In this document: positions 13,589 through 34,702 of the stretch, piece after piece
Layout of the letters: the number at the start of each line of letters is the position of its first letter
How positions within the stretch are numbered: position 1 is the stretch's first letter
DNA from: Ostreococcus lucimarinus
Taxonomy: Eukaryota
Assembly: GCA_000092065.1 (NCBI GenBank)
Contig: CP000593.1
DNA: 64,000 nt
Reading direction: 5' to 3' (one strand)
The notes under the pieces: model-generated
What the model was told of the DNA's origin: nothing
The model's input: the letters and a program-made list of their open reading frames with translations, nothing else
Databases searched by the model: none
Made by a program: the position numbers and the translations under genes

Positions 13589-15151
13589 ATGTCGCGACTC
13601 GCGCGACGTCTCGCGACGTTCGCACGCGATGCACACGCGTCGTGCGCGCGCGTAGATCTTCCGCACGCGCTCGCGCTTCGCGCATCCTCATCCGCCGCCG
13701 GGCCGAGTCCGCGGCGATTCGCCGTCGTCGGCAGCGGTCCCGCGGGCATGTACGCCGTCTTGGCGCTCACGAAGACGTTCGATGGCGCAAAAGTAGACGT
13801 GTTCGAACGCTACCCCGCGCCATTCGGTTTGGTGCGCTACGGTGTCGCGCCCGACCACGCGGAGACGAAGCTCGTGACGAACAAGTTTCATGAAACGCTC
13901 ACGACGCGAGACGACGTCGCGTTTTACGGCAACGTCCAACTCGGGCGAGACGTGAGTTTAGGAGAACTTTATGATAGCTACCACGGCGTCGTGCTCGCGT
14001 GCGGGACGAGCGGAGACAGACGTTTGGAGGTACCGGGAGAGGGCGAACACCGAGGCGTGCTCGGAGCGAGAGAGTTCGTCGCGTGGTTCAACGGCGATCC
14101 CGAACACGGGCCGCAGAGCGCGACGCACGCGGCGGTAGTGGAGGCTTTGCGTAGTCGTGATGGTGATGCACACGTGGCGGTGATCGGGGTCGGGAACGTC
14201 GCCATCGATTGCGCGCGGGTGTTGTTACGAGACGCGGATGCGCTCGCGGGGACGGATATTTGCGAGCACGCGCTGGAGGTGCTGCGCGCCCATCCCGTGC
14301 GCGCCGTGTCCGTGATCGGGCGACGCGGGGTAGCGCAAGCTTCATTTTCACCGAAGGAGTTGCGCGAGCTGTTGAATTTGCGGAACGTAAGAGTGGTGAT
14401 TTCGGACGAGAACCTCACGCTGGAGCCCGAAGACGAAGCCGAGTTGGCGGAGAACAGACCGCGGCGGCGAGCGCACGAGGCGTTCGTCAAGAGAAAGACC
14501 GCAGGGGAGTGTGCGAGCGAGGATGGATGCACAAAAATACTCAATGTGCGATTTCTCGCAAGTCCACTAGCGTTCGGGGGTGAAAATGGTGTGTTGAGTT
14601 GGATGAAGCTCGGTAGGAACGAACTCGTCGGCGCCGCCGGCGCGCGAAAATCCATCGCATCTGGCGAAACGGAGATGGTTCCCACCGCCTTAGCGCTGCG
14701 TTCAGTGGGATATCGTGCAGAACCGATTCAAATGACCGTCAAAGACGAATCCTTGACTCAATTGCGACTGCCATTCGACGAAAAGAATCGCGTTGTGCCA
14801 AACGCGTACGGCGCCGTCGCCGTCTCGGCGGATTCCGCCGATACCATTCCTCGTCTCTACGTCACCGGCTGGCTCAAACGCGGACCAACAGGAATCATCG
14901 GCACCAATCTCACGTGTGCCGACGAAACTATCGCAAAAATGGCTGCCGATTTCGCCGTCGCCCCACCTCCCGATCCTGTCGAGGACGGCGTCGACCGCCT
15001 CCTCGAGAAGCGCGGCGTCCGCGTCGTGCGCGCCGCCGACTGGATTCAAATCGATCGCCTCGAGCGCGAGCGCGGCGCTGCGCGCGGAAAACCACGAGAA
15101 AAGTTTGTCTCCACAGCCGACGCTCTCAAGGCGATCGACCGTAGCTTGTAA
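13589..15151 (+). CDS. NADPH:adrenodoxin (ferredoxin) oxidoreductase, mitochondrial-type (Arh1/FDXR-like)
   Basis: FAVVGSGPAGMY FAD-binding Rossmann motif after a transit-peptide-like N-terminus, length about 520 aa. ATG verified at 13589. Confidence 0.8.
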   Translation: MSRLARRLATFARDAHASCARVDLPHALALRASSSAAGPSPRRFAVVGSGPAGMYAVLALTKTFDGAKVDVFERYPAPFGLVRYGVAPDHAETKLVTNKFHETLTTRDDVAFYGNVQLGRDVSLGELYDSYHGVVLACGTSGDRRLEVPGEGEHRGVLGAREFVAWFNGDPEHGPQSATHAAVVEALRSRDGDAHVAVIGVGNVAIDCARVLLRDADALAGTDICEHALEVLRAHPVRAVSVIGRRGVAQASFSPKELRELLNLRNVRVVISDENLTLEPEDEAELAENRPRRRAHEAFVKRKTAGECASEDGCTKILNVRFLASPLAFGGENGVLSWMKLGRNELVGAAGARKSIASGETEMVPTALALRSVGYRAEPIQMTVKDESLTQLRLPFDEKNRVVPNAYGAVAVSADSADTIPRLYVTGWLKRGPTGIIGTNLTCADETIAKMAADFAVAPPPDPVEDGVDRLLEKRGVRVVRAADWIQIDRLERERGAARGKPREKFVSTADALKAIDRSL

Positions 15152-15235: not shown

Positions 15236-16147
15236 ATGCGTCTCGCGTCGAGCGCTTCGTTCGCTTCGCGTCCGAGCGTTCGCGCGCGCTCGACGCGCAA
15301 CGCGAACGTTCGACGCGCAACGCGCCACAGCGCGCGCGCGAACGCCGCCGGCCGCTGGGCGCCGCCGTCGCGGTCGACGACGCAAACGTCGACGGCGTCG
15401 TCGCGTGCGGCGCCGAAACCGCCGCTCGTCGCCGTCGCCGGGCGCGACGTCACGTCGTTCGCATTTGCCGCCGCCGGCGCGGCGCTGCTGACGACGGTGG
15501 GCGCGGTGGCGCCGCTCGTGCGGTCGCTGCGGGAGCTGAGCGCGAGCGTCGACGCGGCGGCGACGGCGGCGGAAAGCGCGGCGAATGAAGTGGAGGCGTT
15601 AGCGAAAAACACTGCGAAGGAGCTACCGGAGACGCTGCAAGCGATGGAAGAGAGCGCGCGAGAGGTGGAGGCGTTGGCGGCGGAAACGCGGGAGGCGTTG
15701 TCGAAATTGGATGCGACGGAGTACGTCGAGTCGCTCGTAAACGATTTCACGGCAAAGATGAAAGATCCGACGAAGGATTTTCGGGATTTGGGAGACGATG
15801 CGACTGAGTACGTCAGGCGTTTGTCGCTTGAGCTCGGGCTAGTCATGCAGAGCGTGGGCATTTATTTAGACGATGGTGCGTTTGACGAAGACGCGAAGAA
15901 TTTGAGCGCGGCGGAAAAGGCGCGGCGGAAGAACGCCCTCACAGAGGCAATCTCAGCGGCGAAGGAAACGACGGAGAGCGCGGCAAAACTGTCGACGCAA
16001 CTGCAAGGCGCGGCCAACGGTGAATCTAAAGGACGAGATCTAGCAGAAATCGTGGGAAAGATTGCGCTCGCGAGCAAGCAGGTATCGACGGCGATGACAA
16101 GAGTCGTCGAGAGCACGTCGGAGAGTTTCCGTTCGACGGATGAATGA
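15236..16147 (+). CDS. Hypothetical Ala/Glu/Lys-rich coiled-coil protein with organellar-presequence-like N-terminus
   Basis: ORF-track start 15197 is GTG; the first ATG is at 15236 (MRLASSASFASRP...). K/E-rich helical C-terminal half looks like coding rather than a GC artefact. Confidence 0.4.
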   Translation: MRLASSASFASRPSVRARSTRNANVRRATRHSARANAAGRWAPPSRSTTQTSTASSRAAPKPPLVAVAGRDVTSFAFAAAGAALLTTVGAVAPLVRSLRELSASVDAAATAAESAANEVEALAKNTAKELPETLQAMEESAREVEALAAETREALSKLDATEYVESLVNDFTAKMKDPTKDFRDLGDDATEYVRRLSLELGLVMQSVGIYLDDGAFDEDAKNLSAAEKARRKNALTEAISAAKETTESAAKLSTQLQGAANGESKGRDLAEIVGKIALASKQVSTAMTRVVESTSESFRSTDE

Positions 16148-16190
16148 CGGATTCAGATTTTATGATTTTTTAACGCGCAAATATTATGTA

Positions 16191-18899: not shown

Positions 18900-19113
18900 G
18901 TGACGACGCCACGATGCGCTTTCTTTCGTTCGACGCGAGCCGCGTCGCGGACGCGCCGCGCGCGCGTCGGCGTCTGGCGATGTCCCGCGCACTGACCGTT
19001 GCCCAGAGCGCGAGACGGAACCGCGACGGTTCGCGCGTCGGTCGGGCGGTTCGCGCGGTCGGGCGGGAACGCGCGCGTCGAATGGAAACGTTTCAAATAC
19101 AGTCGATCGATCG

Positions 19114-21333
19114 TTATTTCGCGAGTCGTGAGCTTCGACGCCGAGGAGAGTCGGAGGGATCGCCGCGTTCGTCGCGCGTCGATGCACGCGCGGCGCGCTT
19201 GGGCGCGGGCGAGAGGAAGGATGGGAAGTCTCCGCCGGGAAGCGGCGTCGGACGCGCGCCGAACAGCAAAGACGCGGTGTGATCCTTCGGCGGCGGTGCG
19301 ACGGTGGGCTCGTCCAGTGATGGTCGACGACGCGCACCGAACGGTGAGGCGTACATGGTCGGTTCGGGAACCGTGTAGCTCGAAGTTCGCGCGCCCGACG
19401 GAGTCATCAGAGATTTGATGCCAGCGGGTGAGGACGACGGACCGCGTTCGAGCGCGCTGCGACGATCGGCCTTCGCGTCGTGCGGTCGAACGAACGTCAA
19501 AGGTTTGCCCGGGCTTACCAACATCGTCGTGGCCAACGCCGCCGTCGCGCTGTCGATCGACGGCTCTCGCCGCTCGCGCGCAAGTTCGATGGGTGGTTTG
19601 AGAAACGGCAAGATGCCGACGGCGGCGTCTTCGCTCTTCAACACGGCCTCGAATTCCTTGACTTCATCGATCAACAGTGCGCTCGCGGTGGTGGCCAAAG
19701 CGTCCTCCGATGCGTCCCGCACGACGAGCGAGCGAGCCAACAAGGCGTCGTCGTCGCCTCTTTGCCTCGCGGCTTCCGCCACGAGTACTTTTTGCGGCAC
19801 CGGCAAGCGTGACAAACTCTCCTGCATTCGCTTCACGAGTTTCGCGGCGTGCTCGTCTTCTAAACGCCCTTCACTTCTGGCTTTGGAGAACAACTCGGAC
19901 GCCTCGAGCGCGCGTCCTCGGTTGAGCAAGTACAAAATTCCAGTCTCCACGGGAACTTCCGAGCGTCGCGCCCACAAGAGGTCGAGCAGTAACTTCTCCA
20001 TCTCGCCGTAAAACGGAAGCTCGAGGACCTTGTCCAGGCAAAGCTTCTCGACGCCGTGATCTAACAACAGACTCACGAGGTATGCGCCTGATTTTGAATC
20101 GCCGCGCAATTCGGGAAACGTCTTGAACGCGTCTCTGACGGCGATAAACGCCTCGGCGATGAGACCGCACGCGAGACGGATTGAAACATCTAAACCTATG
20201 GCCTCGGTGTCCGAGGACGAAGGCGCGCGCGCGCGCGCCACCATTAACGCCGTCGTCGCGCGACCGCGTCGAGCTAAACTCGCGATAAACTTCACCGGCA
20301 ACAACGGATGCGCGACGCGAGGTAAGAGCGCGCACGCCTCGTCGAGCGACGCCTCGTTCTCTGAGTCATCGAGCAATACCGCTGCGCGCGTTTCTTGAAA
20401 CAACCTCGGATGAATACGCGCTTGTCGCGCGTACTCCATCGGCGACCCGTCGTGCGGCAAGCCGGAATCGAGCAAAAAGTACAGAAACAAACACTTCTTC
20501 GCCACGAGCGCCGCCGGCGACGCGCTCCCGTCCACGAACACGCACTTCGCCGCATCCGTCACCGTCTTGAACGGATACGCTGGCTGATGCTCGCCCACCC
20601 CCGCGAGTAAATCATCTAAAAACGTCGTCGCGTTTGCGCCTCCGAATCGCGCGTCCCCGTTCGCCGCCGCGCTCCTTCGCCGTTGCACCGCCCCCGCCCA
20701 CGCCGCCGGTCCACCGTATCGCGCCCCCACCGCATCACTCAATCCCTCTCTCGCCGCCCACAGCAGCGCCTCCGCCTGCAGCTGTCTCGTCACCACTTCA
20801 TCCGCCGTCGCTCGCAGCGCCTCTCGCTCCGCGTTCGCCTCGTCCCCGTCCTCTCTCCATCCTCCCAGCGCCTCCACCGTCCTTCGCGCCGCCTCCAGCG
20901 TTCGCATCGCGTCCTCCACCGCCGCCACTCTCGCCTCTCGCGGTCTTCCCGCGCTCGCGTGCACTCTTTCGCTCGCTCGTCTCGTCGCTCTTCGCGCCCA
21001 CGCGCTCGCGCACGCCCCGTCCCGCGCGTACGCCTCCGCGCCGTCGTCGCTCGAGAACCTTCCATCGTCGCTCAGGCACACTTCGTCGACGTAGTGCGCG
21101 ATCACCGACGCGCACCCCGCGCGCGCGCACGCGTCGAAGACGTCGTGGAGGCGGTCGACGTCGAGCTGTTCGGGCGCGTCGGCGACGTCGCGCGCGGGCG
21201 CGGCGGCGACGCCGGGACACTGGGACGACCGGAGCGCGGCGTGCGCGGCGCGCAGGGTGGGAACGTGCGCGAGCGACGCGGGAGGTAAGATGGCGAGCTC
21301 GTCCAGCGCGATCGCGAGCTCGGGGGCGTCCAT
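19114..21333 (-). CDS. Hypothetical ~740-aa protein, alpha-helical, Ser/Pro-rich C-terminus; no family recognised
   Basis: Single long ORF, ATG verified at 21333 (MDAPELAIALDEL...). Contains KCLFLYFLLDSGLP, LLDLLWARRSEVPVETGILYLLNRG helical blocks. C-terminal SPxx-rich tail. Confidence 0.5.
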   Translation of the reverse strand: MDAPELAIALDELAILPPASLAHVPTLRAAHAALRSSQCPGVAAAPARDVADAPEQLDVDRLHDVFDACARAGCASVIAHYVDEVCLSDDGRFSSDDGAEAYARDGACASAWARRATRRASERVHASAGRPREARVAAVEDAMRTLEAARRTVEALGGWREDGDEANAEREALRATADEVVTRQLQAEALLWAAREGLSDAVGARYGGPAAWAGAVQRRRSAAANGDARFGGANATTFLDDLLAGVGEHQPAYPFKTVTDAAKCVFVDGSASPAALVAKKCLFLYFLLDSGLPHDGSPMEYARQARIHPRLFQETRAAVLLDDSENEASLDEACALLPRVAHPLLPVKFIASLARRGRATTALMVARARAPSSSDTEAIGLDVSIRLACGLIAEAFIAVRDAFKTFPELRGDSKSGAYLVSLLLDHGVEKLCLDKVLELPFYGEMEKLLLDLLWARRSEVPVETGILYLLNRGRALEASELFSKARSEGRLEDEHAAKLVKRMQESLSRLPVPQKVLVAEAARQRGDDDALLARSLVVRDASEDALATTASALLIDEVKEFEAVLKSEDAAVGILPFLKPPIELARERREPSIDSATAALATTMLVSPGKPLTFVRPHDAKADRRSALERGPSSSPAGIKSLMTPSGARTSSYTVPEPTMYASPFGARRRPSLDEPTVAPPPKDHTASLLFGARPTPLPGGDFPSFLSPAPKRAARASTRDERGDPSDSPRRRSSRLAK

Positions 21334-21436
21334 GACGGACGACCGGGCGCGATGTGACGCACATCCAGCGCGCGGGTTTGAACGGTCGTTCGCGACGCGG
21401 CGGGACGCGCGAGGCGCGTTTGGTTTTAATTACACC

Positions 21437-22948
21437 TCACAGATGGTCGATGACGTCCTTGAGAGACTTGCCGTCGATTTTGGTGGTTTCGAGCAAAAAG
21501 GTCTTCTTCTTAGCCTCCATGAGCTGGGCCTCGACGGCGCGAGATTGCTCCGTGTCGGGCGCGCGCGTCTTGGCGCGCTCGAGCTCGACGCGGTCGGTGT
21601 ACTTGAGCTGAGCGCCGAGGACGTGGTTGGTGATGCCGGGAAGATCGCCCTCCGACGCGGGTTCGATCGTGGGCTCGAAATCGTCGGGAGTATACCTGTG
21701 CTCCTCGTGCATGTACTCGCCCTCGGGGGTGAGACGATGGCCGTGGGGCTCGCTCGACGACGGGTGCCGCGAGACGAAGAGCGCGGCGTCGGCGGAGTAG
21801 CCGAAGAGTTCCAACGTCTTCTCGGCGATGCGGGTTTGGACTTCGATGATGGGGGAGTCGGTGCGGTAGACGAACTTTTCGCGGTGGATCGTGAACCGTC
21901 GGAGGTTTTGCTTCATGTGTTCGTGGCTTCCCAGCGTGTTGGAAAGTTTCGCCGGGAGCTTGAGGAGCGTCGTGAGCTCTTGCATGACTTTTTGCGCGGC
22001 TTGGTACTTTTCCGGTTTTTTCCCGGTGGCGTCGCGTCGGAAGTGATCCATGTCCGGTTGCACCAAATCCTCCGCCCGGAGCACCGTGGCGTAGTTCTTG
22101 AGCGGGCCCTTGATGAGCGCCCCGAGCTCAAAGTTGATGGACGTCCAGTACGCCGTCGTGCGCAATAAATCAATCACGTCGTCCTTCTTCACGCTCGTCA
22201 TCGACTGGTGCTGGGAGAGATGCGCCCACTCGGATTCAAATTTTGCCGTCAACTGCTCCCATCGCTCTTGACCAAAGTACGCCTTTTGTAAATCCCGCTC
22301 CTTGTCGTGCAAATTCCCGAGCGGCAGCGTCCGCGGATCCCGCACCAAGTGCACGTACGTCACCGACGGCCCGTACACGTCTCTCCAAATCGGCACCAAA
22401 TACATCGCCAACGGATCCTTCCATCCCCACCGCCCGACCTCTTGATCGTGTTGTATCCCATTCATCGTCAATCCCGGGTGCAACCACTTCTCCTGTCTCG
22501 CAAACATATCGCACAAATGTTTCGCTAAATCCGCTTGCAAATCCATCGGCAAATCATCCGGTTCGTACAGCAACCGCTTCGAAAACGCCATGACGTCCAC
22601 CACCATGTCATCCAACCCGCTCAACCGCTCCGCGTCGCTGTTCCCATCCTTATCCGTCGGTCCGAACGTCACCGCGTTCGAATCCCTCAGGAATTCCATC
22701 AGCGGCTTTCCCGCGCCGCCGCCGTCGCCGCCGACGATCACCGGCTTGCTCGGAATCTGCGTGCATCGCATCTCCGGGTGATCGCGCAGCAGGTGCGTCA
22801 TCCATCGCCGCGCCGGCCGCGACGCCGTCCCTCCCGCGCTTCCCGCGCCCGCGTCCATCGCCTGTAGCGGCGCGCGCCGCGCGCTCGCGCCGCGAAACGC
22901 GCCCGCGCGTCCCAACACCAAAAACGTCCCGAGCGTCACCGCCGCCAT
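21437..22948 (-). CDS. Type II membrane protein, sulfotransferase-like (tentative)
   Basis: N-terminal signal-anchor MAAVTLGTFLVLG (ATG verified at 22948), G-rich loop VIVGGDGGGAGKP, YVHLVRDPR resembling the sulfotransferase 3'-PB RDP motif. Function is low confidence. Confidence 0.45.
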   Translation of the reverse strand: MAAVTLGTFLVLGRAGAFRGASARRAPLQAMDAGAGSAGGTASRPARRWMTHLLRDHPEMRCTQIPSKPVIVGGDGGGAGKPLMEFLRDSNAVTFGPTDKDGNSDAERLSGLDDMVVDVMAFSKRLLYEPDDLPMDLQADLAKHLCDMFARQEKWLHPGLTMNGIQHDQEVGRWGWKDPLAMYLVPIWRDVYGPSVTYVHLVRDPRTLPLGNLHDKERDLQKAYFGQERWEQLTAKFESEWAHLSQHQSMTSVKKDDVIDLLRTTAYWTSINFELGALIKGPLKNYATVLRAEDLVQPDMDHFRRDATGKKPEKYQAAQKVMQELTTLLKLPAKLSNTLGSHEHMKQNLRRFTIHREKFVYRTDSPIIEVQTRIAEKTLELFGYSADAALFVSRHPSSSEPHGHRLTPEGEYMHEEHRYTPDDFEPTIEPASEGDLPGITNHVLGAQLKYTDRVELERAKTRAPDTEQSRAVEAQLMEAKKKTFLLETTKIDGKSLKDVIDHL

Positions 22949-23106
22949 CGTCTCGCGCGCGCGCGCGCCCCGCGACCGCGCGGCGCGCGCGCGACGTTCG
23001 CGCGTCATCGCGCGCGCGTCGCGAGGACGCGACGCCGTTCGAGCGCGACGCGATTCGAATCGCCGCGCGACGCGATGTCGACACTTCGCGTCGCGCGGCG
23101 ATTCGA

Positions 23107-24333
23107 ATGGCGTCGACGCGCGCGATCGCGGGCGCGGGATCGCGAATCGACGCGAATCGACGCGACGCTCGCGAGCGCGCCGCGCGCGTCGCTCGACCGG
23201 CGACGCGACGCGCGCGCGACGACGACGCGGCGGAATCGGAATCGGTGTCGGAACCGGGGTCGCGCGCGCACGCCGGCCCGCACGACGTCGTCGTGAAGCG
23301 CACGACGCCGCGACCGACGCGCGCGGTGGCGCGCACGGGCGCGGTGGCGACGAAGAGCGCGAAGGCGCACCGAAGGCAGCGCGCGTGGGCGCCGGACGCG
23401 CTGGAGTTTCACGGGCTGGTGCGGGCGCGGCGGGAAGATTTGGGGACGCGCGCGAACGAGGACGAGAGGGAAAGATTCCCGTACGGCGATGGATTCGCGT
23501 TCGCGAGGGCGACGTGCGAGACGGAGACGATGGTGGCGCTCGCGACGGCGATGGTCGGGGAAGAGCGACGCATGCGGCTGGAAAACGTTTTGGAGCATAG
23601 AAGTTTTTCGTTGCTGCCGATTCTAGAGGGCGTCTACGACGTCGGCAATATCTTGGCGGTGTGTCGGACGACGGAGGCGCTGGGGATCGGGTGCGCGTCG
23701 ATCGTGAGCTCGAAGGGGCTGTCGTTCAAGGCGAGCGGGAGGACGTCGGGAGGGGCGCTGAAGTGGCAACACGTGGAGCAGTTTGAGACGTCGGAACGCG
23801 CGCTCAGAGTCGCGAAGGCGAAAGGATACCGCGTTCTTACGACTGAGTTTGACGGCGCGCAGCCGCTGTCGCATTACGATTGGACCGTGCCCACGGCGGT
23901 GGTGTTTGGGAACGAGCGCGAGGGGGTTTCGGACGAGGCGCGAGCGCTGCGGGATGGCGCCGTGTACATTCCGATGTTTGGCTTCACCGAGTCTTTGAAC
24001 ATTTCCGTCGCCGCCGCGCTCGTGATGTCGCACGCCGTGACGGACCGGATCAACCGCCGAGGGTTTCACGGCGATTTGACTGAGGAAGAAAAACGTATTT
24101 TGCGCGGCGTGTACATGTCTAGGTTGATACCGAACTACGCAAAGCAAGGATATCTCGAAGAACTCGTCGAGCGTCATAGAAAGGGTCAAAAGCTCGCGGT
24201 GACGGACGACATCGATGTGAGCGAGGAAACACTCGACGAAATTGAATTGTTGACCGAACTGGACGCGGCCAAGTTGGTCGGTAGGCGCAAGCCGAAACGA
24301 GACCTGGGATGGGACGAGCACCTGGACGGTTGA
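23107..24333 (+). CDS. SpoU/TrmH-family RNA 2'-O-methyltransferase
   Basis: VVFGNEREGVS and ESLNISVAAALVM SPOUT motifs. ATG verified at 23107. TGTAA 3'-end signal shortly after the stop. Confidence 0.75.
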   Translation: MASTRAIAGAGSRIDANRRDARERAARVARPATRRARDDDAAESESVSEPGSRAHAGPHDVVVKRTTPRPTRAVARTGAVATKSAKAHRRQRAWAPDALEFHGLVRARREDLGTRANEDERERFPYGDGFAFARATCETETMVALATAMVGEERRMRLENVLEHRSFSLLPILEGVYDVGNILAVCRTTEALGIGCASIVSSKGLSFKASGRTSGGALKWQHVEQFETSERALRVAKAKGYRVLTTEFDGAQPLSHYDWTVPTAVVFGNEREGVSDEARALRDGAVYIPMFGFTESLNISVAAALVMSHAVTDRINRRGFHGDLTEEEKRILRGVYMSRLIPNYAKQGYLEELVERHRKGQKLAVTDDIDVSEETLDEIELLTELDAAKLVGRRKPKRDLGWDEHLDG

Positions 24334-24381
24334 ATTATTGAAGTTGTTGTTTATTGTGTCAAATGTTGTAAATCTAGAGAA

Positions 24382-27300
24382 CTACTTTCGTCTTCTGCTG
24401 CGACTAGAGGTACTTTTATTAGCAGGCGGAGTCGGCTCCACCGTTTTTCGTTTCTTCTTGTTGTCCGCGACTTCCGGTTCTGGTTTAGCGGGCGGCTTCG
24501 CTTCTTCTTCCGTCTTTGGCGGCTCCGGAGCTTCTTCAGCCGGCGGAGGCGCGGCTCGCTCCGGCGCTTTGTCCGTGTCCTTCGGCGCTGGACGGAACGG
24601 AACGTACGGAATACCTTGCGCCGCGCAGCACTCTGGGCAGGCAAACTTGACGTTTTCGGCGTTTTCGTCTTCCTCGCCCGGCGCCGGCGACTGCATGCCG
24701 ATGCACTCGTAATGAAACCAACCATCGCATCGATCGCAGCAAATCATCGGCCTGAGAGCGTCGTACGCGCTTCGGCAAACGCAATACAGTTCGCATCGCT
24801 CTCCCAACTCCTCGAGCTCCTCCTTCAAGTATAAAGGCAAAGATCGACCCTCTTGAAGCAGCAACTGCGCCGCCTCGATAGGAATCGTTTTGTCTTGCAC
24901 GACGGCGGCGGCGCGTTCGAGCCAGATTTGTCCAGCAACCTCCAACGCGTGCGCGCGATCGGCCAAAGGATCAATGCCGGCACCAGGGCAAAGACCAGCA
25001 GCCATGGCAGATTCCTTGAGCTCGTGAAGCTTGATCAACCTCGGGAACGGCGCACCAGTCATGAGCCGCGTGGCTTGTTCTCTCCACGCCGGACCGCACA
25101 CTTCGCGCATCAACGCGAGCGTCTCCTCAACAGGTTCCAGCTCCATCGCCAGAGCACCCTTCATGCCCGCGTACACTTGCAGCGCTGGATCGACATTATC
25201 TTTTCGAGGAATGTCATACGTGTAATCCATCTCTTGCTTGGGCATTCCAGACGCGTCGCCGACAAGCGATGGCATGGCCGGTTGCAACATGAACTGCTGC
25301 GGAACCATCATCGGTTCGTTCGTCTTCAACTGAGCAGACATATCGCTTGGACTACCATGACCCGTGGATGTTGAAGGTTCTTTGCCGGTGTCTTGCGCCG
25401 TCGGCGGCGGCATCATGCCAGACATTCCAGATAGTTGCAGAGTCGCTTCCATGAGCCAGTTGCTAGCGCCAACATTTGCCAGCTCTTCCTCGTGCTCGTT
25501 TGTCATCTTTAGATGCTGTTGCTGCATCATCAAGACGTGGAGGATGTGGGGCCTAGACCGAACTGGAGCCATGTGAATTTGAGCTTGGCACATCGCGAGT
25601 TGCATGGCGAGCTGTTGAAGTTGCCCGAGCTGCTTTGTGACGACATCTGAAATCTCCTGCGAACACGGCGAAATGTTCAACGCGTGCGTGCGCTGCGTTG
25701 CGGCGAACGTGACAGCTTGACCCATCAGCATGACTTGCTGTAATGGCGTGAGAGAAGCTGGAGGATTGGGGTTCTCTGCAGTCGCCGCGAGCGACGCTTC
25801 GGCGATTCGTCGTGTGCGTTCCTCAGATTCTCTCATCGCTGCTTCTTGGGCAATCTTCGAAGCTTGACTGATGGCGTTGTCGTGTGCTTCCTTCATACTC
25901 TTTCTATGCAAAGTCTTTCGTACTTCCAATCGCCACGCGTCGTGAGTATTGATGACTTGATTCAACACGGCTTCTTCTGGCACTTCTCCAGGAAATCGCT
26001 GCGCTTCACCGAGGAGTTCTCGCAAAAGCATGACGTTTGGGCGATTGGTGCGATGCACCGAGCGATACGTATCCAACGAGAGTGCGCTCGCCTTGCCACT
26101 CTTCGCGATGCATGGCGGACAGATGTAATTGTGCATCGTCTTTGCCATAGTAGGCGTCACATTGATACATTTTAAGTGATACCAGTCACCGCAATCATCA
26201 CATCCAACCATTTGAATTCCTCCAGCTTGTCGACAAAGGCAGAACTAACCCTCCTCCGTCTCCGGCGGTTCGCCAGTCCCGGTGATGTCTTCCACACCAG
26301 CTTTGATGGAATCAAGAACATTGCTCAACATTTCGATAAGCGTTTTTTCTTGTTTGACTTCACCCTGATCGTTTGCCCAGAGCAACGCGTTGAGCCTCTC
26401 CGTCCACGCCGTGGCGGCGTTGCACGCATTTGTGAGCGCTTGTCTCTCTGAGCACTTGAAGGTCAAATCTTCCACCTCCGCTAGAAGATCGTATAATTCG
26501 TCAATCGAAGGGCGAGATCGACCTTCAGCGACACTGTTCAAGCACTTACGAACGGTGTCGACCCACTGTGCGTGATCCGCCAACGACGCCTCGAGGTCTT
26601 CTACCTTCGAGACGTCAGCGGGAAGTGCCTTGCCTTCGGCGATGAGGGCGTCTATTTCCTCCGGTGATGCACTCGGAGCCAATCGACCGTCTTCAAGGAG
26701 AGGAGGATCGAGCAAACGATCCGCTTTCTTGCGCCATTCGTCCACAATCGTGTACCGTTTCATGATTTCAGCGACAAGATCCTCTTTCAAGTCTTGAAGC
26801 ACGTCGATTTCTTCCCTGAGCTCGTCCAAAACGGTGTCCTCGACGAGCTTCGCCTTGGGTGCAATGATCTTAGCGACGCGTTCTTCCCACTTGAGCGACT
26901 TTAAACGAATGCGAACTGTCTCCATGGCTGGTAATTCTAATCCAAAGTCTTCGTGCGAAAGTTCAAGCTCGGTCAACGTCACCTCGGCGCCGTCTTCTCG
27001 CCAGCGCTCGATGGCGTCCTTCGCGTCCACGTCCCACTCTTCTGCGGCTTCGACGCGTTCTTCCAAAGCTTCAACTTCCTTGACAAACAATTTCAAGTTC
27101 GAAGACTCTTTCATGAGCTCTTGCGCCTCGGAAAGCGGCGGAATCGGATTTGACACACCGCGACGAGTGAGCTGCTTTCCCTTCAAACAAGGTTGTGCAC
27201 GATCCAACCAAGACTTGGCTACATTGACCGCTTCTGAAAGCACGTCGAATCCATTCAGAAAGATTGGAATCGAGCTTCCTTCGCGGATGAGCGACGCGGC

Positions 27301-30300
27301 GTCTTCGAGTGACGGTCGGTCCTTACTATCGAGAGATTTGAGCATCACCGCCGCGCGCTCGTTCCACTTCTTCGCCGCGTTGATGTGGCTCTCGCACTGC
27401 GCCAGCAGCGCTTCTTCATCTGGGGCAACCTCTTTATCTTCGGAGTCGAGGAACTCGTTACCCGCCCGCACGGCCGCTTCGACTTCGGCGAGCGGATATT
27501 TCTTCGATGAAACCATGTCCTTCAATTTCTCTGCCAGCTCCCGGACGACGATACGGTTTCGCAACCACTCGACTTCGTCCACTCGCACGCTAAACTTTTC
27601 ACCCTCGACGAGAAGCATGTGCAAATCCGTCACTCTTGCTCCCGGATAATCACTCGCTCGAGCATGATCGGCCCACACTTTGACAGCTTTGATTTGATCG
27701 GCTAGTCTGTCGACCTCGTCGAGTTTTGTTGACAACGCCATGCCCTCCTTGAGAAGCGCCTCGGCTTCTTCCACGTCAACCTTGGCGACGAACAGCGACT
27801 CAGACTTTGCGCGCCAAAAATTCAACTCTTCTAAAGATTTGCGCAAAGTCAAGAGTTCGCTCTGCTGAACGGGTAATCCATGCGCCTCTTCGTATAACGC
27901 CTCGATCTCTCGAGCATTCGCTAGTTCCTCGCGCGGCGGGAGTTGTCGTCGTCCTGGAAGCGCGCCGCGCACCTTCGTGGACCACGCGCCTGCTCTAACG
28001 ATGACGTCCTTCAGCTTTTTATATGAAGGGACTTCCACACCAAACTTATTCGCTTCAGTTTGAAGCGTCGTACAAGCGCGAGGAGATGGATTCGGTACCT
28101 CGGCGAGAGCCGCCTTGATGCGTTCCTCCAATTTCAAGCCCGCCGCGAGCAAATCGCGGAAAGGTTGAGTATCAGCCTTAGGCATCGGTACCGGTGGGTT
28201 GTCAAGGAGCTCTTTTAGTCTGTTCAATCTCAATCGCGCTTCACCAGCGTCATCGTGCGCGGCCTCGGCACCAGCACTGGATCCAAGCCTTTGCTTCAGC
28301 GCCACAAGACTCGTCTGCCACGCGACGGCGTTCGTCACGCGAGTGTACGCTTCTCGAGCCGCCTTCATATCAGCACCACCCCAAATAAACTCTTCACCCG
28401 CAGCGAGTAAATTTCTCATCTTGTCCAGCGGCGGCAAAGGTGGTTTGACGAGCTCTTCGCCCACTCGTTTCACCCAAGCCTGAGCCTTCTTGACGAGATT
28501 CTTGTTCACTGTGACTGAGTCCAAGTCGCTGTGCTTGGATTTTAAGCTGGCTAGTTCCTTCTGAGAAAGCGCCTTCTCCGTCTTCTTCACCAGACTTTCT
28601 AAATCAGCCACTGTTTCTCTGTAAAACATCGTCTTCTTCGACATCGCACATTTGCACAAGTCGTTGACGTGTCGCAAGCACGCCTTGCGCGTCTCGTCGC
28701 ACGAGCACCCGACGCCAGACGAGTACAAAATGTGTCGACAAACAACGCACTCATCGGATCCAGAGTTCGATGCATCGTCAAACCTAGATCGTACTTTACG
28801 AGGCTTTTCGCAGCCATCGTCGTCGTCGTCGTCGTCTGCTGACGTCATTTGCGCGCTGCGCGTCACGCCAGACGCGAAAAGCTCGGCGCGACCGTTTGCC
28901 TCTTCAGCGTACAAGCGCGCAATCTCGGGCCACAAGTGCGGCGCTATGCTCGAACTAGGATTGTTTGCTACTCTGCAAACCAACTCGTCGTGACTAAACA
29001 ATGAACGCTTGGCGTACGATCGGTTTCTCTCCACGCTCGCCGAGCCCTCTGGGAGCCAGTCAGCGGGCACAAAGTTGACGCTCTCCGTGCAGTTCAATCC
29101 ACAGTTGAACGACGCGTAGTACGCCCCGGGATACGTCACCACGTATTCTCCTGGGAATTGCTCCAACGTGTGCACGGGCACTCCCGCGCTCATCAAGAAG
29201 CTCGGCGAGAGCATCGTAAAGACGCTTCCCAAATCGTTGACGTGCGCCTCGTAGACGTCGGGCATCACCTTCTGGAAGCATTCTTCCAACTTGTCCGCTG
29301 CACTCGCCGGCACGCAGTACCACAGTTTCGCGGCACCCCAGTGATTGTAAGTGATACTGTACATGTTATGCTCTTCTCGACGCCAAGTCGTGGAACTAAA
29401 CGTGCTTCCGACTTCTAAGAATGGCGTCGTCACGCCCGCCACGTCATCCTTCAACGCGCCCAGTAGCGACGACTTTTCCCCACTCGCGCGCGCGACGTTG
29501 TTGAGATTCCATTTCGACTCTGACCAGCGCTTGATAGATTCCGGGCTCACGCCGTCAATCTTTACCTGAAGCGCTTCGCCGTGTCTCGGGAACCCGCTTC
29601 CGTACTTTGTCGTGTCAATCGCCGTGCCGCATTTGACCTCGCAAACATCATCCACCGAGCTCGCATCTTCAACCATTCGCCAGAAACACTCCTCAATCAC
29701 CTGCATATCGATCCCAGTTCGCTTGGCGTCCTCGCCAAAGAACGCCGTATCAAATTCTATGCACGCCTCGTTGAAATCGCCGAGCGTAAACTGCGTCCCT
29801 TCATCCGCGCTCAATCGCTCCACCTCCGCGTCAATCTCTTCGCATCGTCCACAAAACCACTCTCCACTCGGCACTTCAGTCATCTTCGGCGTTAAGCAGT
29901 ACATATGTGACCTACGCGCGCATCATTCGTCAGTCTCGTCGCTCCTTCGCGGCTCCTTCTCCCCCGCGCGCCTCTAAACCCCACGTCTAACCGTCGCCCA
30001 CGCGCGCGTTCGCCGCGCCCTCGCGCGCCGCGCGAGCGCTCTCTCTCCCCGAACGCGCGTCCGAACGATCGAGATAATTTTCACGCGCGCGTTCTCGCGT
30101 GGCATTGTCGTATACGCACCCTCGATCGCACCCATCGCACAGGATCATCGCGTCTTCGTTCCCGCTCGCGCCGCACACGTCGCAGTCGGCGTCGCCCTCG
30201 GGCGCGTCCGCGAGCTGCGAGGCGACGAGATCGAGGCCCTGCGTCGCGAAAACACGCGCCGTAAAAGTCAGTCGCACGTCATCGCGACGCCCATCATCGC

Positions 30301-30820
30301 GCGCGCGCGTCGCACGCGCCGCGAACGCGTGCGATTCGCCGTCATCCCGGTCCCGCGCGAAGAAGATATGGCACGAATTACGCACATTTTCCACCTTGAC
30401 TCGCCGTTCGGGCGCGCCCGACGCCCCAAATTCGAGCCCACACAGCGCATCGATCGCCAGCGCGTCATCTTGTTCGATCTCTCCCTTCACCGCGTCGAAC
30501 TGCGCGCTCTTCACCGCGTCTTCTCTTCGCTTGGCGTCGCGCGCGAACGCCTCCAGCCACGCCCCGTGCAGCGCTCTCGCCGCGTGTCCCGCCGCGCATC
30601 CGCGTCCGTGCGCCCCGATCGCCTCCGCGACCTCGCGCCAGCCTTGATTTCCATCGATCGCGTCCGCGCCACCGCGTCTTTTCACCTCCTCGTACAGCGC
30701 GCGCAGGTCGAAGCGCCATCCTCGCACTCGATGGATGCGCCAACTCGCCCCTCGCGGCGCGCGTTCGTCCGGTCGCGACGCCCTGTGTCGCTCGTATTCG
30801 TCCCTGAACGGCACGCGCAT
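24382..30820 (-). CDS. KDM5/JARID1-type JmjC histone lysine demethylase (ARID, PHD, JmjC, C5HC2 zinc finger, PLU-1, PHD, PHD); at least 2 introns or interruptions
   Basis: ARID block DLRALYEEVKRRGGADAI..GWREVAEAIG; PHD1 split by an intron (CDVCGASGNEDAMILCDGCDRG | GSHMYCLTPKMTEVPSGEWFCGRC); JmjC GSTFSSTTWRREEHNMYSITYNHWGAAKLWYCVP; C5HC2 finger; two C-terminal PHDs with CxC spacing. Exon 30820..30120, intron 30119..29912, exon 29911..26248, in-frame TAG at 26245-26247, then 26244..24382. 5' start (ATG 30820) uncertain. Confidence 0.7.
29912..30119 (-). other. Spliceosomal intron (208 nt) inside PHD finger 1 of the KDM5-like gene
   Basis: Donor CGAGG|GTGCGT, branch CGAGACTGACGAAT, acceptor GCGTAG|. 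Splicing gives CDGCDRGGSHMYC, a canonical C-x2-C-x5-H-x2-C PHD core. Confidence 0.65.
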
Positions 30821-31360
30821 GTCGACGGACGCGTCTCGCGCGCACGCCCCGAGCGCGCGGACCGGCTGCGTGCGCGCGGTGAACGACCACGCGCGCAAAT
30901 CGAGGGCGAACGCGCCGCGGTCGCGATGGCGGAGACCTCGCGCGTCGTCGTCGTCGTCGTCGTGCGCGATCGTGAGCTTGCCGATGCCGCACGCGCGGGC
31001 GTCGACGGCGGCGAGATCATCGAGGGCGTCGACGACGCCGGCCTCCGGGCGCGCGGACGCGCACGGCGCGCGCGACGGGGCCCGCATCGACCGCCGTCGC
31101 GAAATGCGGTGCGCGCGCGACGCCCGCGCGAGACGCGCTCGCACGACACGGCGTTCGCGCGCGTCGCAATGCGCGTTCGGTCGCGGCGATGATTATTTAT
31201 GCGCGCGTCATCGCGATCGCACATGGATCGAGACGGCGCCCGAACGCGCGTTTGACCGTCGTCGATCGGCGATAAACCGATGCGCGCGCGGGCGACGACG
31301 ACGTCGTCGCGGTGACGGTCGGGACGCGCGCGCGGTGCGCGCGCGAGACGCGCGCGCGCG

Positions 31361-32491
31361 ATGGCGCATCGAGACCTCGGTCGCGACGTGCGAGGGGCCG
31401 GAGGCGCGGCGTTCGGCGACGGCGTCAGCGCGGTGCGGTTCTGCGCGGTCAGCGCGGGAGAGGGTCGCGACGACGACGACGATGGGATGGCGCGACGGTT
31501 GACGCTCCTGGTGACGTCCTGGGACGGGACCGCGCGGCGGTACGCGTGCCGCGCGCGCGAGATCGGGGACGTGAAATCGTTGAACTCGATCGATTTGGGC
31601 GCGCCCGCGCTGTGCGGGACGTTCGTCGGGACGGATGAGGACGCGGCGTGCGTGGGATGCCTCGACGGGTCGGTGCGCCTCGTCGATTTTAAAACTGGCG
31701 CGTTTCGCGTCGTCGGCGCGCACGACGACGGCGCGGTGTCGGCGGTGGAGTACGATGATGCGACGAAGAAATTGTTTACGTTTGGCTGGGATCGAACGAT
31801 TAGGGCGTGGGATTTGACGAAGGACGAGCGAGGGCGCGCGGTGTCGACGACGAAGACGGCTGGGAAGTGCTACGCGGCGGATTTGAGAGACGGTAAGATT
31901 TTCGTGGCGACGAGCGATGGGCAAGTTTTGGCGTACGAGACGCGAGATTTAGTGCGCGGTGTGGATGGTGATGACGGACGACGCGCGTCGGAAGCGCCGC
32001 CGCGTCCGTTGATAAATAGACGTTCGAGCATGCGGTTTCAAACGCGCGCCATCGCAGCAAATATCCGAGGCGATGGATTCGTGGCCGCGAGCGTCGAGGG
32101 ACGCGTAGCGGTGGAGTTCATACGCGATGAAGAGAACGACAAGCGAAAATATGCGTTCAAGTGTCATCGCAAAACCGATGACGCGAGCGTGGGTGAGATT
32201 GTTTATCCCGTCCACGCGGTGGCGTTTCATCCCGTCCACGGCACATTCGCCACGGGCGGCGGCGACGGTTACGTCAATTTTTGGGATGGCGACGCTAAAA
32301 AGCGACTTTTTCAGTCGCCCCGCTACCCCACCTCCATCTCAGCGCTCGCTTTCAGTCCTTGTGGGTCCTTGCTCGCCATCGCGTCTTCGTACGCGCACGA
32401 AGAGCGAGAGAACAACAAGCCCGAAGACCGCGTCTTCCTTCGCGAGACGCGCGCCGAGGAAGTCACCCCGAAATCGGCCAAGACATCCTAG
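31361..32491 (+). CDS. BUB3: Mitotic checkpoint protein BUB3 (WD40)
   Basis: YAFKCHR...VYPVHAVAFHPVHGTFATGGGDGYVNFWDGDAKKRLFQSPRYPTSISALAFSPCGSLLAIASSYAHE is near-identical in pattern to the BUB3 C-terminus. ATG verified at 31361. Confidence 0.85.
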   Translation: MAHRDLGRDVRGAGGAAFGDGVSAVRFCAVSAGEGRDDDDDGMARRLTLLVTSWDGTARRYACRAREIGDVKSLNSIDLGAPALCGTFVGTDEDAACVGCLDGSVRLVDFKTGAFRVVGAHDDGAVSAVEYDDATKKLFTFGWDRTIRAWDLTKDERGRAVSTTKTAGKCYAADLRDGKIFVATSDGQVLAYETRDLVRGVDGDDGRRASEAPPRPLINRRSSMRFQTRAIAANIRGDGFVAASVEGRVAVEFIRDEENDKRKYAFKCHRKTDDASVGEIVYPVHAVAFHPVHGTFATGGGDGYVNFWDGDAKKRLFQSPRYPTSISALAFSPCGSLLAIASSYAHEERENNKPEDRVFLRETRAEEVTPKSAKTS

Positions 32492-32668
32492 ACAAACGAC
32501 CGACCGAACGAACGCGCGCGCGTGTCAACGCTCATCGCCAGATATTCATTCGCGCGCCGAACCTTTCGCCGAGACGCTTCGCGTCCCGCTCGCGCCGCGT
32601 CCTCACTTTCCCTCGCGCGCGTCCGCCCGCGGCGCGCCCGCGGCCCGCCCGCGCCCGCGCTCGGCGTC

Positions 32669-34702
32669 ATGTACCGCGCGTCACGCATCCCCGCGCGCGC
32701 GCGTTGGCGCATCGCGTCGCTCGCGTCGCCGCGGCGCGCGCCGTCGCCGCGTCACCGCCGCTCGCTCGTCGTCGTTCGCGCCGCGCGCGCGACGCCCGCG
32801 ACGTTCGATTACACCGCCCTCGTCGCGAGCGTGCGGGAGATAAACGCGCTGTCGACGCCGGTGAAGATCGACGCGTGCGCGCAGGTGGACGCGCACTCGA
32901 TGACGCTGGACGCGCGCGCGGCGGATGGACGGCGGAGCGTGCGAGTGAGTTGGCACCCGGTGACCGCGCACGTCGCGATGAGCGCGCGCGGGGCCAAGGT
33001 GGAGAAGGGGATGAATCTTAGTTTTGGCGAGAGCGCGAACGCGCTGCTCAAGGGGAAGGTGCTGCTGGATGCGCGCGTGGGGACGGCGTGGGAACGCGCG
33101 TGTCGGTTGCGATTCGGCGATAGGCCGGGAGGTGAGGCAGAGTACGAGCTGTTGTGTGAGGTCATGGGGCGGTACAGCAACGCGTTCTTGCTTGATAGTA
33201 AAAATAATGATGAAGTTTTAGCGTGTGGGTATCAGGTTGGGGAGAAACAGACGAGTGTGCGGCGATTGGCGATCGGGTACGCGTACGAGCCGCCGCCCTC
33301 GGCGCCCGGGATCGATCCCACGACCGGGGTTGAAGGGGGCGTGGACGGATGGACCGCGGTGTTGCGCGACGTCGCACGCGGTCGCAGTGGTGATATGGGC
33401 GAAGCGCGTTTGGATGAGTGCATGGTGCGCGCGTTTCGAGGGGTGTCACCGGCTTTGGCCAAGGCGTTGATTCGCGGCGCGGGCGTCGCCGATGGCGAGC
33501 GCGTCGAAACCGCGAGTGCGAGCGATTGGGTCGCCGTGTACGATGAGTTCATGCGATGGATTGCGAGCGTTTCAAGTGATGCCGACAGTGCGGGTACGCT
33601 CGCAAACGCCACGTGGTGCGAAGAGTTCGGGCAGTTGTTATTGCACCCGTCGTCCGCGGGCGTCGTCTTGCCGCCCGCCGCCGACGATTTGAGCGTTGCC
33701 GGCGGGCCGATCGGCGCTCTTTTCGGCGCTGTGTACGGCGAAGCGGGCGAAACCGACGTGTTCGAGCGCGAACGCTCGCGCATTTTACAAGCCGTGCGCG
33801 CGCGTCTGAAAAAGTTGGCGAGCAAAGACGTTGGGTTCCGCAAGCAATTAGAGGCGGCGAGCGGGCACGAAGAAATTCAACTGCTCGCCGACGCGTTGAT
33901 GGCGTACAGTTACAACTATAAGCCTGGTTCGAGCGAGCTTGAGGGTCAAGACTTCACCACGGGCGAGACAGTGATGTTTAAAGTAGATCCCGAGAAAGGT
34001 CCTGTGGGCACCGCCGAGGCGCTGTACAAAAAGACGAGAAAGCTGCGTCGCACCGCCGACGCCGTCGAGCCGCTCATCGAACAAAATGCGAGCGAGATTG
34101 AGTATTTAGAGGGCGTCGAATTTAGTATTCTCGAAGTCAGCGAGTTCAAATCGCGCGACGATTTATTGTTCATCGAGGAAATTGGCGCCGAACTCGTGGA
34201 CGGTGGATTCTTAAAGCCCACGGGCAAGGGCGCCGACGCGAAGACGCGCGCGATGGCGGCGGCGAAGAAGGGCGGCGGCGCGAAGCCGAAAACCGGTAAG
34301 CAAGCGCGTAAGCAAGAGATGATGAACGCCATTCGCATCTATACCGCGCCGAGTGGAAAGGAGGTGTACTGCGGAAGAAATAGCCGCGGAAACGAAGCGG
34401 TTTCGCTTTTCTTCGGACAAGACCAAGACGTGTGGTTTCACGTTCGCGGCGCCCCGGGCGCGCACGTCATCCTTCGCCAACAACCAGGCGAAACCGCCTC
34501 AGACGACGACATCCAATTCGCCGCCAACGTCGCGAGCTTTCATTCGAAAGTGAGAACGGGCGGCAAAGTCAACGTTTCGTACACGTCTCCTAAGTACGTG
34601 AAAAAGCCCAAGGGCGCCAGGCTCGGCATGGTCACCATCGACCGCGAAGACGTCATCGTCGGACGACCGGACGACGTCGCGGACGTCTGCGACGGGCGAT
34701 GA
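32669..34702 (+). CDS. NFACT-family protein (RqcH/FbpA/Tae2-like ribosome quality-control factor), probably plastid-targeted
   Basis: NFACT-N region FDYTALVASVREINALS..., coiled-coil middle, C-terminal NFACT-R/DUF814 IYTAPSGKEVYCGRNSRGNEAVSLFFGQDQDVWFHVRGAPGAHVIL. ORF-track start 32522 is GTG. First ATG verified at 32669, followed by a transit-peptide-like stretch. Confidence 0.7.
   Translation: MYRASRIPARARWRIASLASPRRAPSPRHRRSLVVVRAARATPATFDYTALVASVREINALSTPVKIDACAQVDAHSMTLDARAADGRRSVRVSWHPVTAHVAMSARGAKVEKGMNLSFGESANALLKGKVLLDARVGTAWERACRLRFGDRPGGEAEYELLCEVMGRYSNAFLLDSKNNDEVLACGYQVGEKQTSVRRLAIGYAYEPPPSAPGIDPTTGVEGGVDGWTAVLRDVARGRSGDMGEARLDECMVRAFRGVSPALAKALIRGAGVADGERVETASASDWVAVYDEFMRWIASVSSDADSAGTLANATWCEEFGQLLLHPSSAGVVLPPAADDLSVAGGPIGALFGAVYGEAGETDVFERERSRILQAVRARLKKLASKDVGFRKQLEAASGHEEIQLLADALMAYSYNYKPGSSELEGQDFTTGETVMFKVDPEKGPVGTAEALYKKTRKLRRTADAVEPLIEQNASEIEYLEGVEFSILEVSEFKSRDDLLFIEEIGAELVDGGFLKPTGKGADAKTRAMAAAKKGGGAKPKTGKQARKQEMMNAIRIYTAPSGKEVYCGRNSRGNEAVSLFFGQDQDVWFHVRGAPGAHVILRQQPGETASDDDIQFAANVASFHSKVRTGGKVNVSYTSPKYVKKPKGARLGMVTIDREDVIVGRPDDVADVCDGR

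What the first reader, a model, noticed from the sequence alone, without database searches (positions are those of the whole stretch)
26200..26260. Single in-frame TAG (26245-26247) splits the KDM5/JARID1-like gene in the middle of a PHD finger
The 1219-aa ORF (JmjC, C5HC2, PLU-1) and the 609-aa ORF (PHD...PHD) are in the same frame on the minus strand, separated only by one TAG. The residues just after the TAG (FCLCRQAGGIQMVG) supply the first Cys pair of the PHD finger whose CDDC-GDWY-H-LK-C half opens the downstream ORF. The gene's last PHD has the same C-x-C...C-x2-C-x4-H-x2-C layout. So the protein must be continuous across the stop. Candidate explanations are a sequencing or assembly error, a very recent nonsense allele, stop-codon readthrough, or an unusually short intron (I could only find a ~50-nt GTGGAA...TAG candidate with a degenerate branch). 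Gene models that split this locus in two would be wrong.
Basis: partly seen in the sequence, partly recalled or inferred. Interest (0 to 1): 0.6.

Follow-up and report, generated by a model that had tools for sequence, protein, structure and literature searches.

The report
Strain-specific nonsense mutation in KDM5-like gene
The in-frame TAG is a real single-base change (CAG to TAG, glutamine to stop) carried by the Ostreococcus lucimarinus CCE9901 reference strain; it truncates a KDM5/JARID1-like chromatin protein that is uninterrupted in every wild relative examined, so it is an ordinary nonsense allele that makes the public annotation split one gene in two.

Summary
One TAG at 26245-26247 (minus strand) separates a 1219-codon and a 620-codon open stretch of one KDM5/JARID1-like gene.

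The window is Ostreococcus lucimarinus CCE9901. NCBI and UniProt annotate the downstream 609-aa ORF as a separate 'predicted protein'.

- **Orthologous codon:** it is CAG (Gln) in 13 of 13 near-identical environmental contigs (99.5-99.9% identity where measured). It is CAA in a related species, and Gln in four other Ostreococcus-type proteins.
- **Not an assembly error:** an independent assembly of sequencing run SRR1179203 reproduces the TAG and is 100% identical to the window over 11.5 kb.
- **Not a recoded codon:** the gene's own terminator is also TAG.
- **Not an intron:** the proposed 51-nt intron encodes conserved amino acids, and 12 of 14 differences from a related species fall at third codon positions.
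- **No readthrough signal:** there is no readthrough motif and no unusual downstream RNA structure.

Best reading: a private nonsense allele that removes PHD2, PHD3 and the basic C-terminal tail. Interest is low.

Side finding: the JmjC domain has lost two of its three Fe(II) ligands across Ostreococcus-type sequences, so the protein is probably non-catalytic.

The parts
26245..26247 (-). Premature stop codon TAG. It is derived from CAG (Gln) by one C-to-T transition on the coding strand and is private to strain CCE9901.
   Evidence: Searches show the sequence. The codon is CAG in L001, L006, L007 and L008-L017 and CAA in L002 and L003. The TAG is reproduced in the Logan assembly of SRR1179203.
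26248..29911 (-). Main exon upstream of the stop: second half of PHD1, a JmjC domain with degenerate metal ligands (29071-29418), C5HC2 zinc finger (28591-28749) and PLU-1 (best stretch 26383-27366).
   Evidence: Pfam scan. KDM5A/B structures match at E = 1e-60.
26110..26241 (-). PHD2 finger. It is intact in the DNA and begins one residue after the TAG.
   Evidence: The Pfam PHD model matches 1-47 of 47 at residues 2-45 downstream of the stop. It is nearly invariant in five Ostreococcus-type species and aligns with PHD2 of plant, animal and fungal KDM5.
24385..26244 (-). The 620 codons made untranslatable by the stop: PHD2, a Q/M-rich linker, a PLU-1-like helical region, PHD3 (24628-24786) and a basic tail (KKKRK at 24445-24459, RSRRRK at 24385-24402).
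   Evidence: This part is 79-80% identical to four other species, against 72-76% for the upstream part. The wild variant L007 shows 7 synonymous and 0 non-synonymous changes here.
24382..24384 (-). Normal terminator of the gene, also TAG.
26245..26295 (-). Rejected: it is coding sequence.
   Evidence: It encodes GVEDITGTGEPPETEEG, conserved in P0001-P0005. Of 14 differences from L002, 12 are at third codon positions and none at second.
29912..30119 (-). Inferred 208-nt intron that splits PHD1. It has a GTGCGT donor, a CTGAC branch site at 29929-29933 and a TAG acceptor.
   Evidence: Joining the exons restores C-x2-C...C-x2-C-x5-H-x2-C. This is inferred from sequence, with no RNA evidence.
30120..31144 (-). 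5' exon of the same gene, with an ARID domain (30545-30730) and the first half of PHD1. The start codon was not determined.
   Evidence: Pfam ARID at E = 1.3e-6. Frame translation.

Best explanation
The TAG is a genuine nonsense mutation in the genome of Ostreococcus lucimarinus strain CCE9901. It is a single C-to-T transition on the coding strand (G-to-A on the plus strand) that turns the Gln codon CAG into TAG. The codon lies immediately before PHD2 of the strain's KDM5/JARID1-like gene.

Translation is expected to stop there. The product would keep ARID, PHD1, JmjC, C5HC2 and PLU-1. It would lack the last 620 residues: PHD2, PHD3 and the basic, NLS-like tail. The mRNA would carry a 3' UTR about 1.9 kb long and is a likely target of nonsense-mediated decay.

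The 609-aa 'predicted protein' in the public annotation is an ORF-calling artefact of this mutation, not a separate gene.

Shown here: the base is real, it is private to this strain, and the wild-type gene is continuous and under purifying selection on both sides of the stop.

Inferred: termination at the TAG, mRNA decay, loss or weakening of function, and when the mutation arose (in the natural lineage or in culture).
For: - **Identity of the window.** The exact 609-aa and 523-aa ORF products are NCBI proteins of O. lucimarinus CCE9901.
- **Orthologous codon.** It is CAG in L001 (99.886% identical over 7.9 kb), in L006 and L007 (99.84% and 99.49%), and in ten further environmental contigs L008-L017 from different samples. 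It is CAA in the related species L002/L003. It is Gln in P0001-P0005, P0056, P0058, P0060, P0062, P0066 and P0067, the last seen on 42 contigs.
- **Allele search.** A pattern matching both alleles found only CAG in JGI metagenomes.
- **Independent confirmation.** The Logan assembly of SRR1179203 contains the exact 1219-aa and 609-aa ORFs and is 100% identical to the window from 21382 to 32904.
- **Genetic code.** The gene's own terminator is TAG.
- **Constraint in the wild.** Variant L007 differs by 13 synonymous and 2 non-synonymous changes spread across both halves of the gene. The downstream part is 79-80% identical between species.
- **Architecture.** PHD2 follows PLU-1 at the same place in plant, animal and fungal KDM5 proteins.
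Against: - No RNA or protein data could be examined, so termination at the TAG and mRNA decay are inferred.
- SRR1179203 could not be traced to its metadata. Its independence rests on its being a separate SRA run and on sequence identity. It is presumably the same strain, so it excludes an assembly or Sanger error but cannot date the mutation.
- All five window-private changes in this gene alter the protein: R/K at 30678, loss of one Asp codon at 28837, Gln to stop, Ala to Ser at 25794 and Leu to Ile at 25035. The wild variant L007 shows 13 synonymous to 2 non-synonymous changes (Fisher p = 0.004). This hints that constraint was relaxed in this lineage for longer than 'very recent' implies. 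The numbers are small, and codon 25794 is polymorphic in the wild.
Confidence: 0.88

Rival explanations
1. Sequencing or assembly error in the reference genome: the strain really has CAG.
For: Every other conspecific sequence has CAG. A single-base substitution is the simplest kind of error.
Against: An independent assembly of a different sequencing run (SRR1179203, Logan) has the same TAG and is 100% identical over 11.5 kb, including the strain's other private variants. The 609-aa ORF is annotated at two places in the assembly, so the stop appears in both copies.
Confidence: 0.03
2. A short 51-nt in-frame intron (26245-26295, GTGGAA...TAG) is spliced out and removes the stop.
For: It has GT...AG ends and a length divisible by three, and the acceptor would fall exactly at the PHD2 boundary.
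Against: The 17 codons encode G(V/I)EDITGTGEPPETEEG(Q), conserved in five species in ORFs that are continuous there. Of 14 nucleotide differences from L002, 12 are at third positions and none at second. In wild conspecifics the 'acceptor' is still an AG (CAG), yet the segment evolves as coding sequence. The donor GTGGAA and the missing CTGAC branch site contrast with the gene's inferred intron, which has GTGCGT...CTGAC...TAG.
Confidence: 0.02
3. The TAG is decoded, by stop-codon readthrough, a suppressor tRNA or TAG reassignment, so that full-length protein is still made in useful amounts.
For: Some basal readthrough occurs at any stop codon. The +4 base is a pyrimidine (TAG-T), which from general knowledge is a weaker termination context than a purine.
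Against: The gene's own terminator is TAG. There is no UAG-CAR-YYA motif. The downstream RNA fold is no more stable than shuffled sequence, with a z-score of -0.21. No tRNA gene lies in the window. The allele is private to one strain, so no dedicated mechanism can have evolved for it. Wild sequences encode Gln with CAG or CAA.
Confidence: 0.04
4. Incipient gene fission: the downstream 609-aa ORF is expressed on its own, by an internal promoter or by reinitiation at ATG 26211, as a PHD-containing protein, as the public annotation implies.
For: It is annotated as a separate protein. An ATG lies 11 codons after the stop.
Against: A product starting at Met 26211 would lack the first Cys pair of PHD2. 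From general knowledge of eukaryotic translation, reinitiation after an ORF of more than 1200 codons is very inefficient. No homologue has this split architecture.
Confidence: 0.03

Closest known systems
KDM5/JARID1 histone H3K4 demethylases (human KDM5A-D, Arabidopsis JMJ17, fungal Lid2)
   Same: The domain order is the same: ARID, PHD1, JmjC, C5HC2, PLU-1, PHD2, then PHD3. The best solved-structure match is KDM5A at E = 1e-60. The best named homologues are plant JMJ17/KDM5 proteins. PHD2 follows PLU-1 at the same position.
   Different: Two of the three Fe(II) ligands are replaced, His to Arg in HxE and the second His to Tyr, in all five Ostreococcus-type sequences. No JmjN domain was detected by Pfam. 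In strain CCE9901 the gene is also truncated before PHD2.
JARID2 (Jumonji), the catalytically inactive member of the JARID group
   Same: It has JARID-type architecture with a JmjC domain that lacks the iron-binding residues. JARID2 structures are also matched, at E = 9e-28.
   Different: Sequence similarity is far higher to KDM5A/B than to JARID2. The PLU-1 domain and the PHD fingers are KDM5 features. The loss of ligands appears to be independent and confined to Ostreococcus-type sequences, because P0006 and P0007 keep H..E..H.
Strain-specific nonsense polymorphisms or unitary pseudogenes in reference strains
   Same: A single transition creates a premature stop in one cultured isolate, while the population carries the intact allele. 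Automatic annotation then splits the gene.
   Different: Nothing unusual. The only particular point is that the affected strain is the species' reference genome and has been used for chromatin studies (methylation and nucleosome data cited in 10.1101/2025.04.21.649811).

Membership tests
KDM5/JARID1 family | JmjC domain of the KDM5 type | tested here: met
   Pfam JmjC at E = 2.8e-31 and KDM5_C-hel at E = 7e-7. KDM5A structure 5ceh matches at E = 1.2e-60.
KDM5/JARID1 family | Catalytic Fe(II) triad His-x-Glu...His | tested here: not met
   CWHIEDH aligns to TWRREEH, and AYHSGFN aligns to AYYASFN. Glu and the 2-oxoglutarate Lys are kept, and both His are lost. The same holds in P0002-P0005.
KDM5/JARID1 family | C5HC2 zinc finger and PLU-1 domain after JmjC | tested here: met
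   zf-C5HC2 at E = 5.6e-14 and PLU-1 at E = 1.3e-61.
KDM5/JARID1 family | ARID domain and PHD1 between JmjN and JmjC | tested here: met
   ARID at E = 1.3e-6 in the upstream exon. PHD1 is reconstructed across the inferred 208-nt intron.
KDM5/JARID1 family | JmjN domain | tested here: inconclusive
   There is no Pfam JmjN hit at E <= 0.01 in the 385-aa upstream ORF. Only a weak resemblance by eye (ACGIGKLTI) was seen. The true 5' end of the gene was not determined.
KDM5/JARID1 family | C-terminal PHD finger(s) after PLU-1, in one polypeptide | tested here: not met
   This is met in the wild-type allele. In this window the TAG at 26245-26247 separates them.
Programmed stop-codon readthrough or recoding site | A stop codon conserved among relatives, with a stimulatory context or structure | tested here: not met
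   Relatives have CAG or CAA, not a stop. There is no known motif and the fold z-score is -0.21.
Spliceosomal intron | Sequence free of coding constraint, with the host's splice signals | tested here: not met
   The protein is conserved across the segment and substitutions fall at third positions. The signals are unlike the gene's inferred intron.

The most novel reading that the evidence does not exclude
The reference strain CCE9901 may be a natural hypomorph or null for a non-catalytic, reader-type KDM5-like chromatin protein. The gene may have been decaying in this lineage for some time, since all five private changes alter the protein. If so, chromatin and methylation data from this 'model' strain would not represent wild O. 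lucimarinus. Alternatively, the truncation was selected in culture. A bolder version is that the two halves now work as separate proteins.
Probability: 0.15. Interest if true: 0.4.

Novelty: new member of a known kind. Interest (0 to 1): 0.2.

Why it matters
The consequences are mainly practical.

- **Annotation.** The O. lucimarinus CCE9901 reference annotation carries a fragment gene model: the 609-aa 'PHD-type domain-containing protein', XP_001421121.1 / XP_001422833.1. It should be merged with the upstream gene and flagged as a disrupted gene. Comparative studies that count JmjC or PHD genes from this genome inherit the error.
- **Experimental use of the strain.** CCE9901 is used for chromatin, methylation and virus-host work. 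Knowing that it carries a truncated chromatin-reader gene that wild populations keep intact is useful background.
- **Biology.** The more interesting point is the side finding that the Ostreococcus-type KDM5-like JmjC domain has lost its iron ligands yet stays under purifying selection.

Tried and rejected
- **First protein search.** An 801-aa query spanning the stop returned nothing, probably because low-complexity words filled the candidate list. Searching with the 1219-aa ORF worked.
- **Rfam and tRNA scans.** Neither found anything in the window.
- **Literature.** A search for SRR1179203 found nothing. Palenik et al. 2007 (PMC1863510) is not held, so the origin of the run and the reported chromosome duplication could not be checked. 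No paper found mentions this stop codon.
- **Other split genes.** I checked two of the other same-frame ORF pairs in the window. The pair at 32489 is two separate neighbouring genes (a WD40 protein and NFACT). The pair at 15149 gave no sign of a split gene, because its downstream ORF has no Pfam match.
- **Intron, readthrough, recoding and fission.** All were considered and rejected, as set out under the rival explanations.
- **CpG deamination.** The mutated C sits in a TCA context, not CpG, so this is not indicated.
- **Order of the private changes.** The order of the strain's private changes, and so the age of the stop, could not be resolved.

Full report
**1. The observation**

On the minus strand the sequence reads ...CCG CCG GAG ACG GAG GAG GGT TAG TTC TGC CTT TGT CGA CAA..., with the TAG at 26247..26245. 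Translating 29904..24382 gives 1841 codons with exactly one internal stop, and the terminal stop is also TAG.

Pfam places JmjC (E = 2.8e-31), C5HC2 (5.6e-14), KDM5_C-hel and PLU-1 (1.3e-61) upstream of the stop, and two PHD fingers downstream.

One detail needs correcting. The PHD model aligns full length (positions 1-47 of 47) to residues 2-45 after the TAG. The stop therefore lies one residue before the first Cys of PHD2 (26110-26241), not inside the finger. Only the ATG-delimited 609-aa ORF, which starts at 26211, begins mid-finger.

Long open frames on both sides of a stop are common in this GC-rich window: 23 cases have at least 150 codons on each side. Two of the other same-frame pairs were checked with Pfam. 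One is two neighbouring genes, and the other gave no sign of a split gene. The case for one gene here therefore rests on homology.

**2. Where the window comes from**

The exact products of the 609-aa ORF and of the neighbouring 523-aa ORF are NCBI/UniProt proteins of Ostreococcus lucimarinus CCE9901.

The 609-aa ORF is annotated there as a separate 'predicted protein / PHD-type domain-containing protein', under two accession sets. The locus also seems to be present twice in the assembly.

**3. The orthologous codon**

A protein search with the 1219-aa ORF found continuous proteins of 1809-1841 aa. All read ...PPETEEGQFCLCRQAGG... at this position.

P0001 is nearly identical to the window's protein. 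Its contig L001 is 99.886% identical over 7.9 kb and has CAG at the codon. A related species (76% protein identity; loci L002 and L003) has CAA.

A degenerate pattern that matches both alleles found two JGI metagenome contigs, L006 and L007, and both carry CAG. Looking up the neighbouring TrmL gene gave ten more environmental contigs from different samples (L008-L017). All have a continuous 1840- or 1841-aa gene call and C at the site.

In total, CAG is present in 13 of 13 wild conspecific contigs. Gln is also present in further cluster members, including one seen on 42 contigs.

**4. Is the T real?**

The exact 1219-aa and 609-aa ORF products occur together on an 18.9-kb contig of the Logan assembly of run SRR1179203. 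That contig is 100% identical to the window from 21382 to 32904, including the strain's other private variants and the inferred intron, so it is genomic DNA.

This is a separate sequencing data set from the reference, so an assembly or base-calling error in the reference is very unlikely. I could not retrieve metadata for the run. It is presumably the same strain, and so it cannot say when the mutation arose.

**5. Alternatives**

*Intron.* The 51-nt GTGGAA...TAG segment (26245-26295) encodes G(V/I)EDITGTGEPPETEEG, which is conserved in five species. Of 14 nucleotide differences from L002, 12 are at third codon positions and none at second. The gene's inferred intron (29912-30119, splitting PHD1) has GTGCGT...CTGAC...TAG signals that the candidate lacks. 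Rejected.

*Recoding or readthrough.* The gene itself terminates with TAG. There is no UAG-CAR-YYA context. The downstream RNA folds no better than shuffled sequence, with a z-score of -0.21. There is no tRNA gene in the window. The allele is private to one strain, so no dedicated mechanism is expected.

*Independent downstream gene.* A product starting at Met 26211 would lack the first Cys pair of PHD2, and no homologue has such an architecture.

**6. What the mutation does (inferred)**

Termination at the TAG would remove 620 residues. These include PHD2, a Q/M-rich linker, a second PLU-1-like helical region, PHD3 (24628-24786) and a basic tail with KKKRK and RSRRRK, which resemble nuclear localisation signals.

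This C-terminal part is at least as conserved between species (79-80% identity) as the upstream part (72-76%). In the wild variant L007 it carries 7 synonymous and 0 non-synonymous differences, so it is functional in nature.

The premature stop, followed by 1.86 kb of formerly coding sequence, would probably trigger nonsense-mediated decay. That step follows from general knowledge and was not tested.

**7. A hint about age**

Compared with the wild contigs, the window has five private changes in this gene:
- R/K at 30678
- loss of one Asp codon at 28837
- Gln to stop at 26247
- Ala to Ser at 25794
- Leu to Ile at 25035

None is synonymous. L007 differs from the rest by 13 synonymous and 2 non-synonymous changes (Fisher p = 0.004). 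The window's private changes in neighbouring genes are synonymous or intergenic.

This suggests relaxed constraint on the gene in the CCE9901 lineage. The numbers are small, and codon 25794 is polymorphic in the wild as Ala or Thr.

**8. Family comparison**

The architecture and similarity place the gene with KDM5/JARID1. However, the Fe(II)-binding His of the HxE motif is Arg (TWRREEH, 29368-29388). The second His is Tyr (AYYASFN, 29104-29124). This holds in the window and in four other Ostreococcus-type species. More distant relatives (P0006, P0007), plants, animals and fungi all keep H..E..H.

The catalytic triad is a defining feature of active KDM5 enzymes; PMC9029850 reports these residues as conserved in the plant KDM5/JARID subfamily. 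The protein is therefore best described as KDM5-like in architecture and probably non-catalytic, in the manner of JARID2. That would make the lost C-terminal PHD reader modules relatively more important.

**9. Verdict**

This is a real feature, but an ordinary one: a strain-specific nonsense allele in a reference genome that misleads annotation. Novelty is low and interest is low. The main value is correcting the gene model and flagging the genotype of the strain.

Noticed in passing
window 29368-29388 and 29104-29124 (minus strand); also P0002-P0005: The JmjC domain has lost two of its three Fe(II) ligands. CWHxEDH has become TWRREEH (His to Arg), and AYHSGFN has become AYYASFN (His to Tyr). 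This holds in all five Ostreococcus-type sequences. Relatives P0006 and P0007, plants, animals and fungi keep the triad. The protein is probably a non-catalytic, JARID2-like 'pseudo-demethylase', yet it is under purifying selection in wild populations.
   Followed up: partly
window 24385-26211 (minus strand): The 609-aa ORF product carries two NCBI accession sets: ABO99414.1/XP_001421121.1 and ABP01192.1/XP_001422833.1. The locus, stop included, therefore seems to be present twice in the CCE9901 assembly, probably through a segmental duplication between chromosomes.
   Followed up: no
window 24382-30000 compared with its flanks: The main KDM5-like exon has 54-55% GC. Neighbouring genes, and the gene's own 5' ARID exon, have 63-69% GC. 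The long ORF at 16191-19337 also lies in a low-GC stretch (52% for 16001-18000). The cause was not examined.
   Followed up: no
window 30678, 28837, 25794, 25035 (minus strand): Besides the stop, the strain has four more private changes in this gene, all protein-altering and none synonymous. Its private changes in neighbouring genes are synonymous or intergenic. This may reflect relaxed constraint in this lineage. Codon 25794 is Ala or Thr in wild contigs and Ser here.
   Followed up: partly
window 29912-30119 (minus strand): An inferred 208-nt intron splits PHD1 between ...CDGCDRG and GSHMYCL.... It has GTGCGT donor, CTGAC branch and TAG acceptor signals. Prokaryote-style gene calls on metagenome contigs therefore all start this protein at the internal Met of PHD1.
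   Followed up: partly
window 31361-32491 and 32522-34702 (plus strand): A WD40 gene and an NFACT gene lie in the same reading frame, separated by a single TAG and about 30 nt. They look like a split gene but are two unrelated neighbours.
   Followed up: yes
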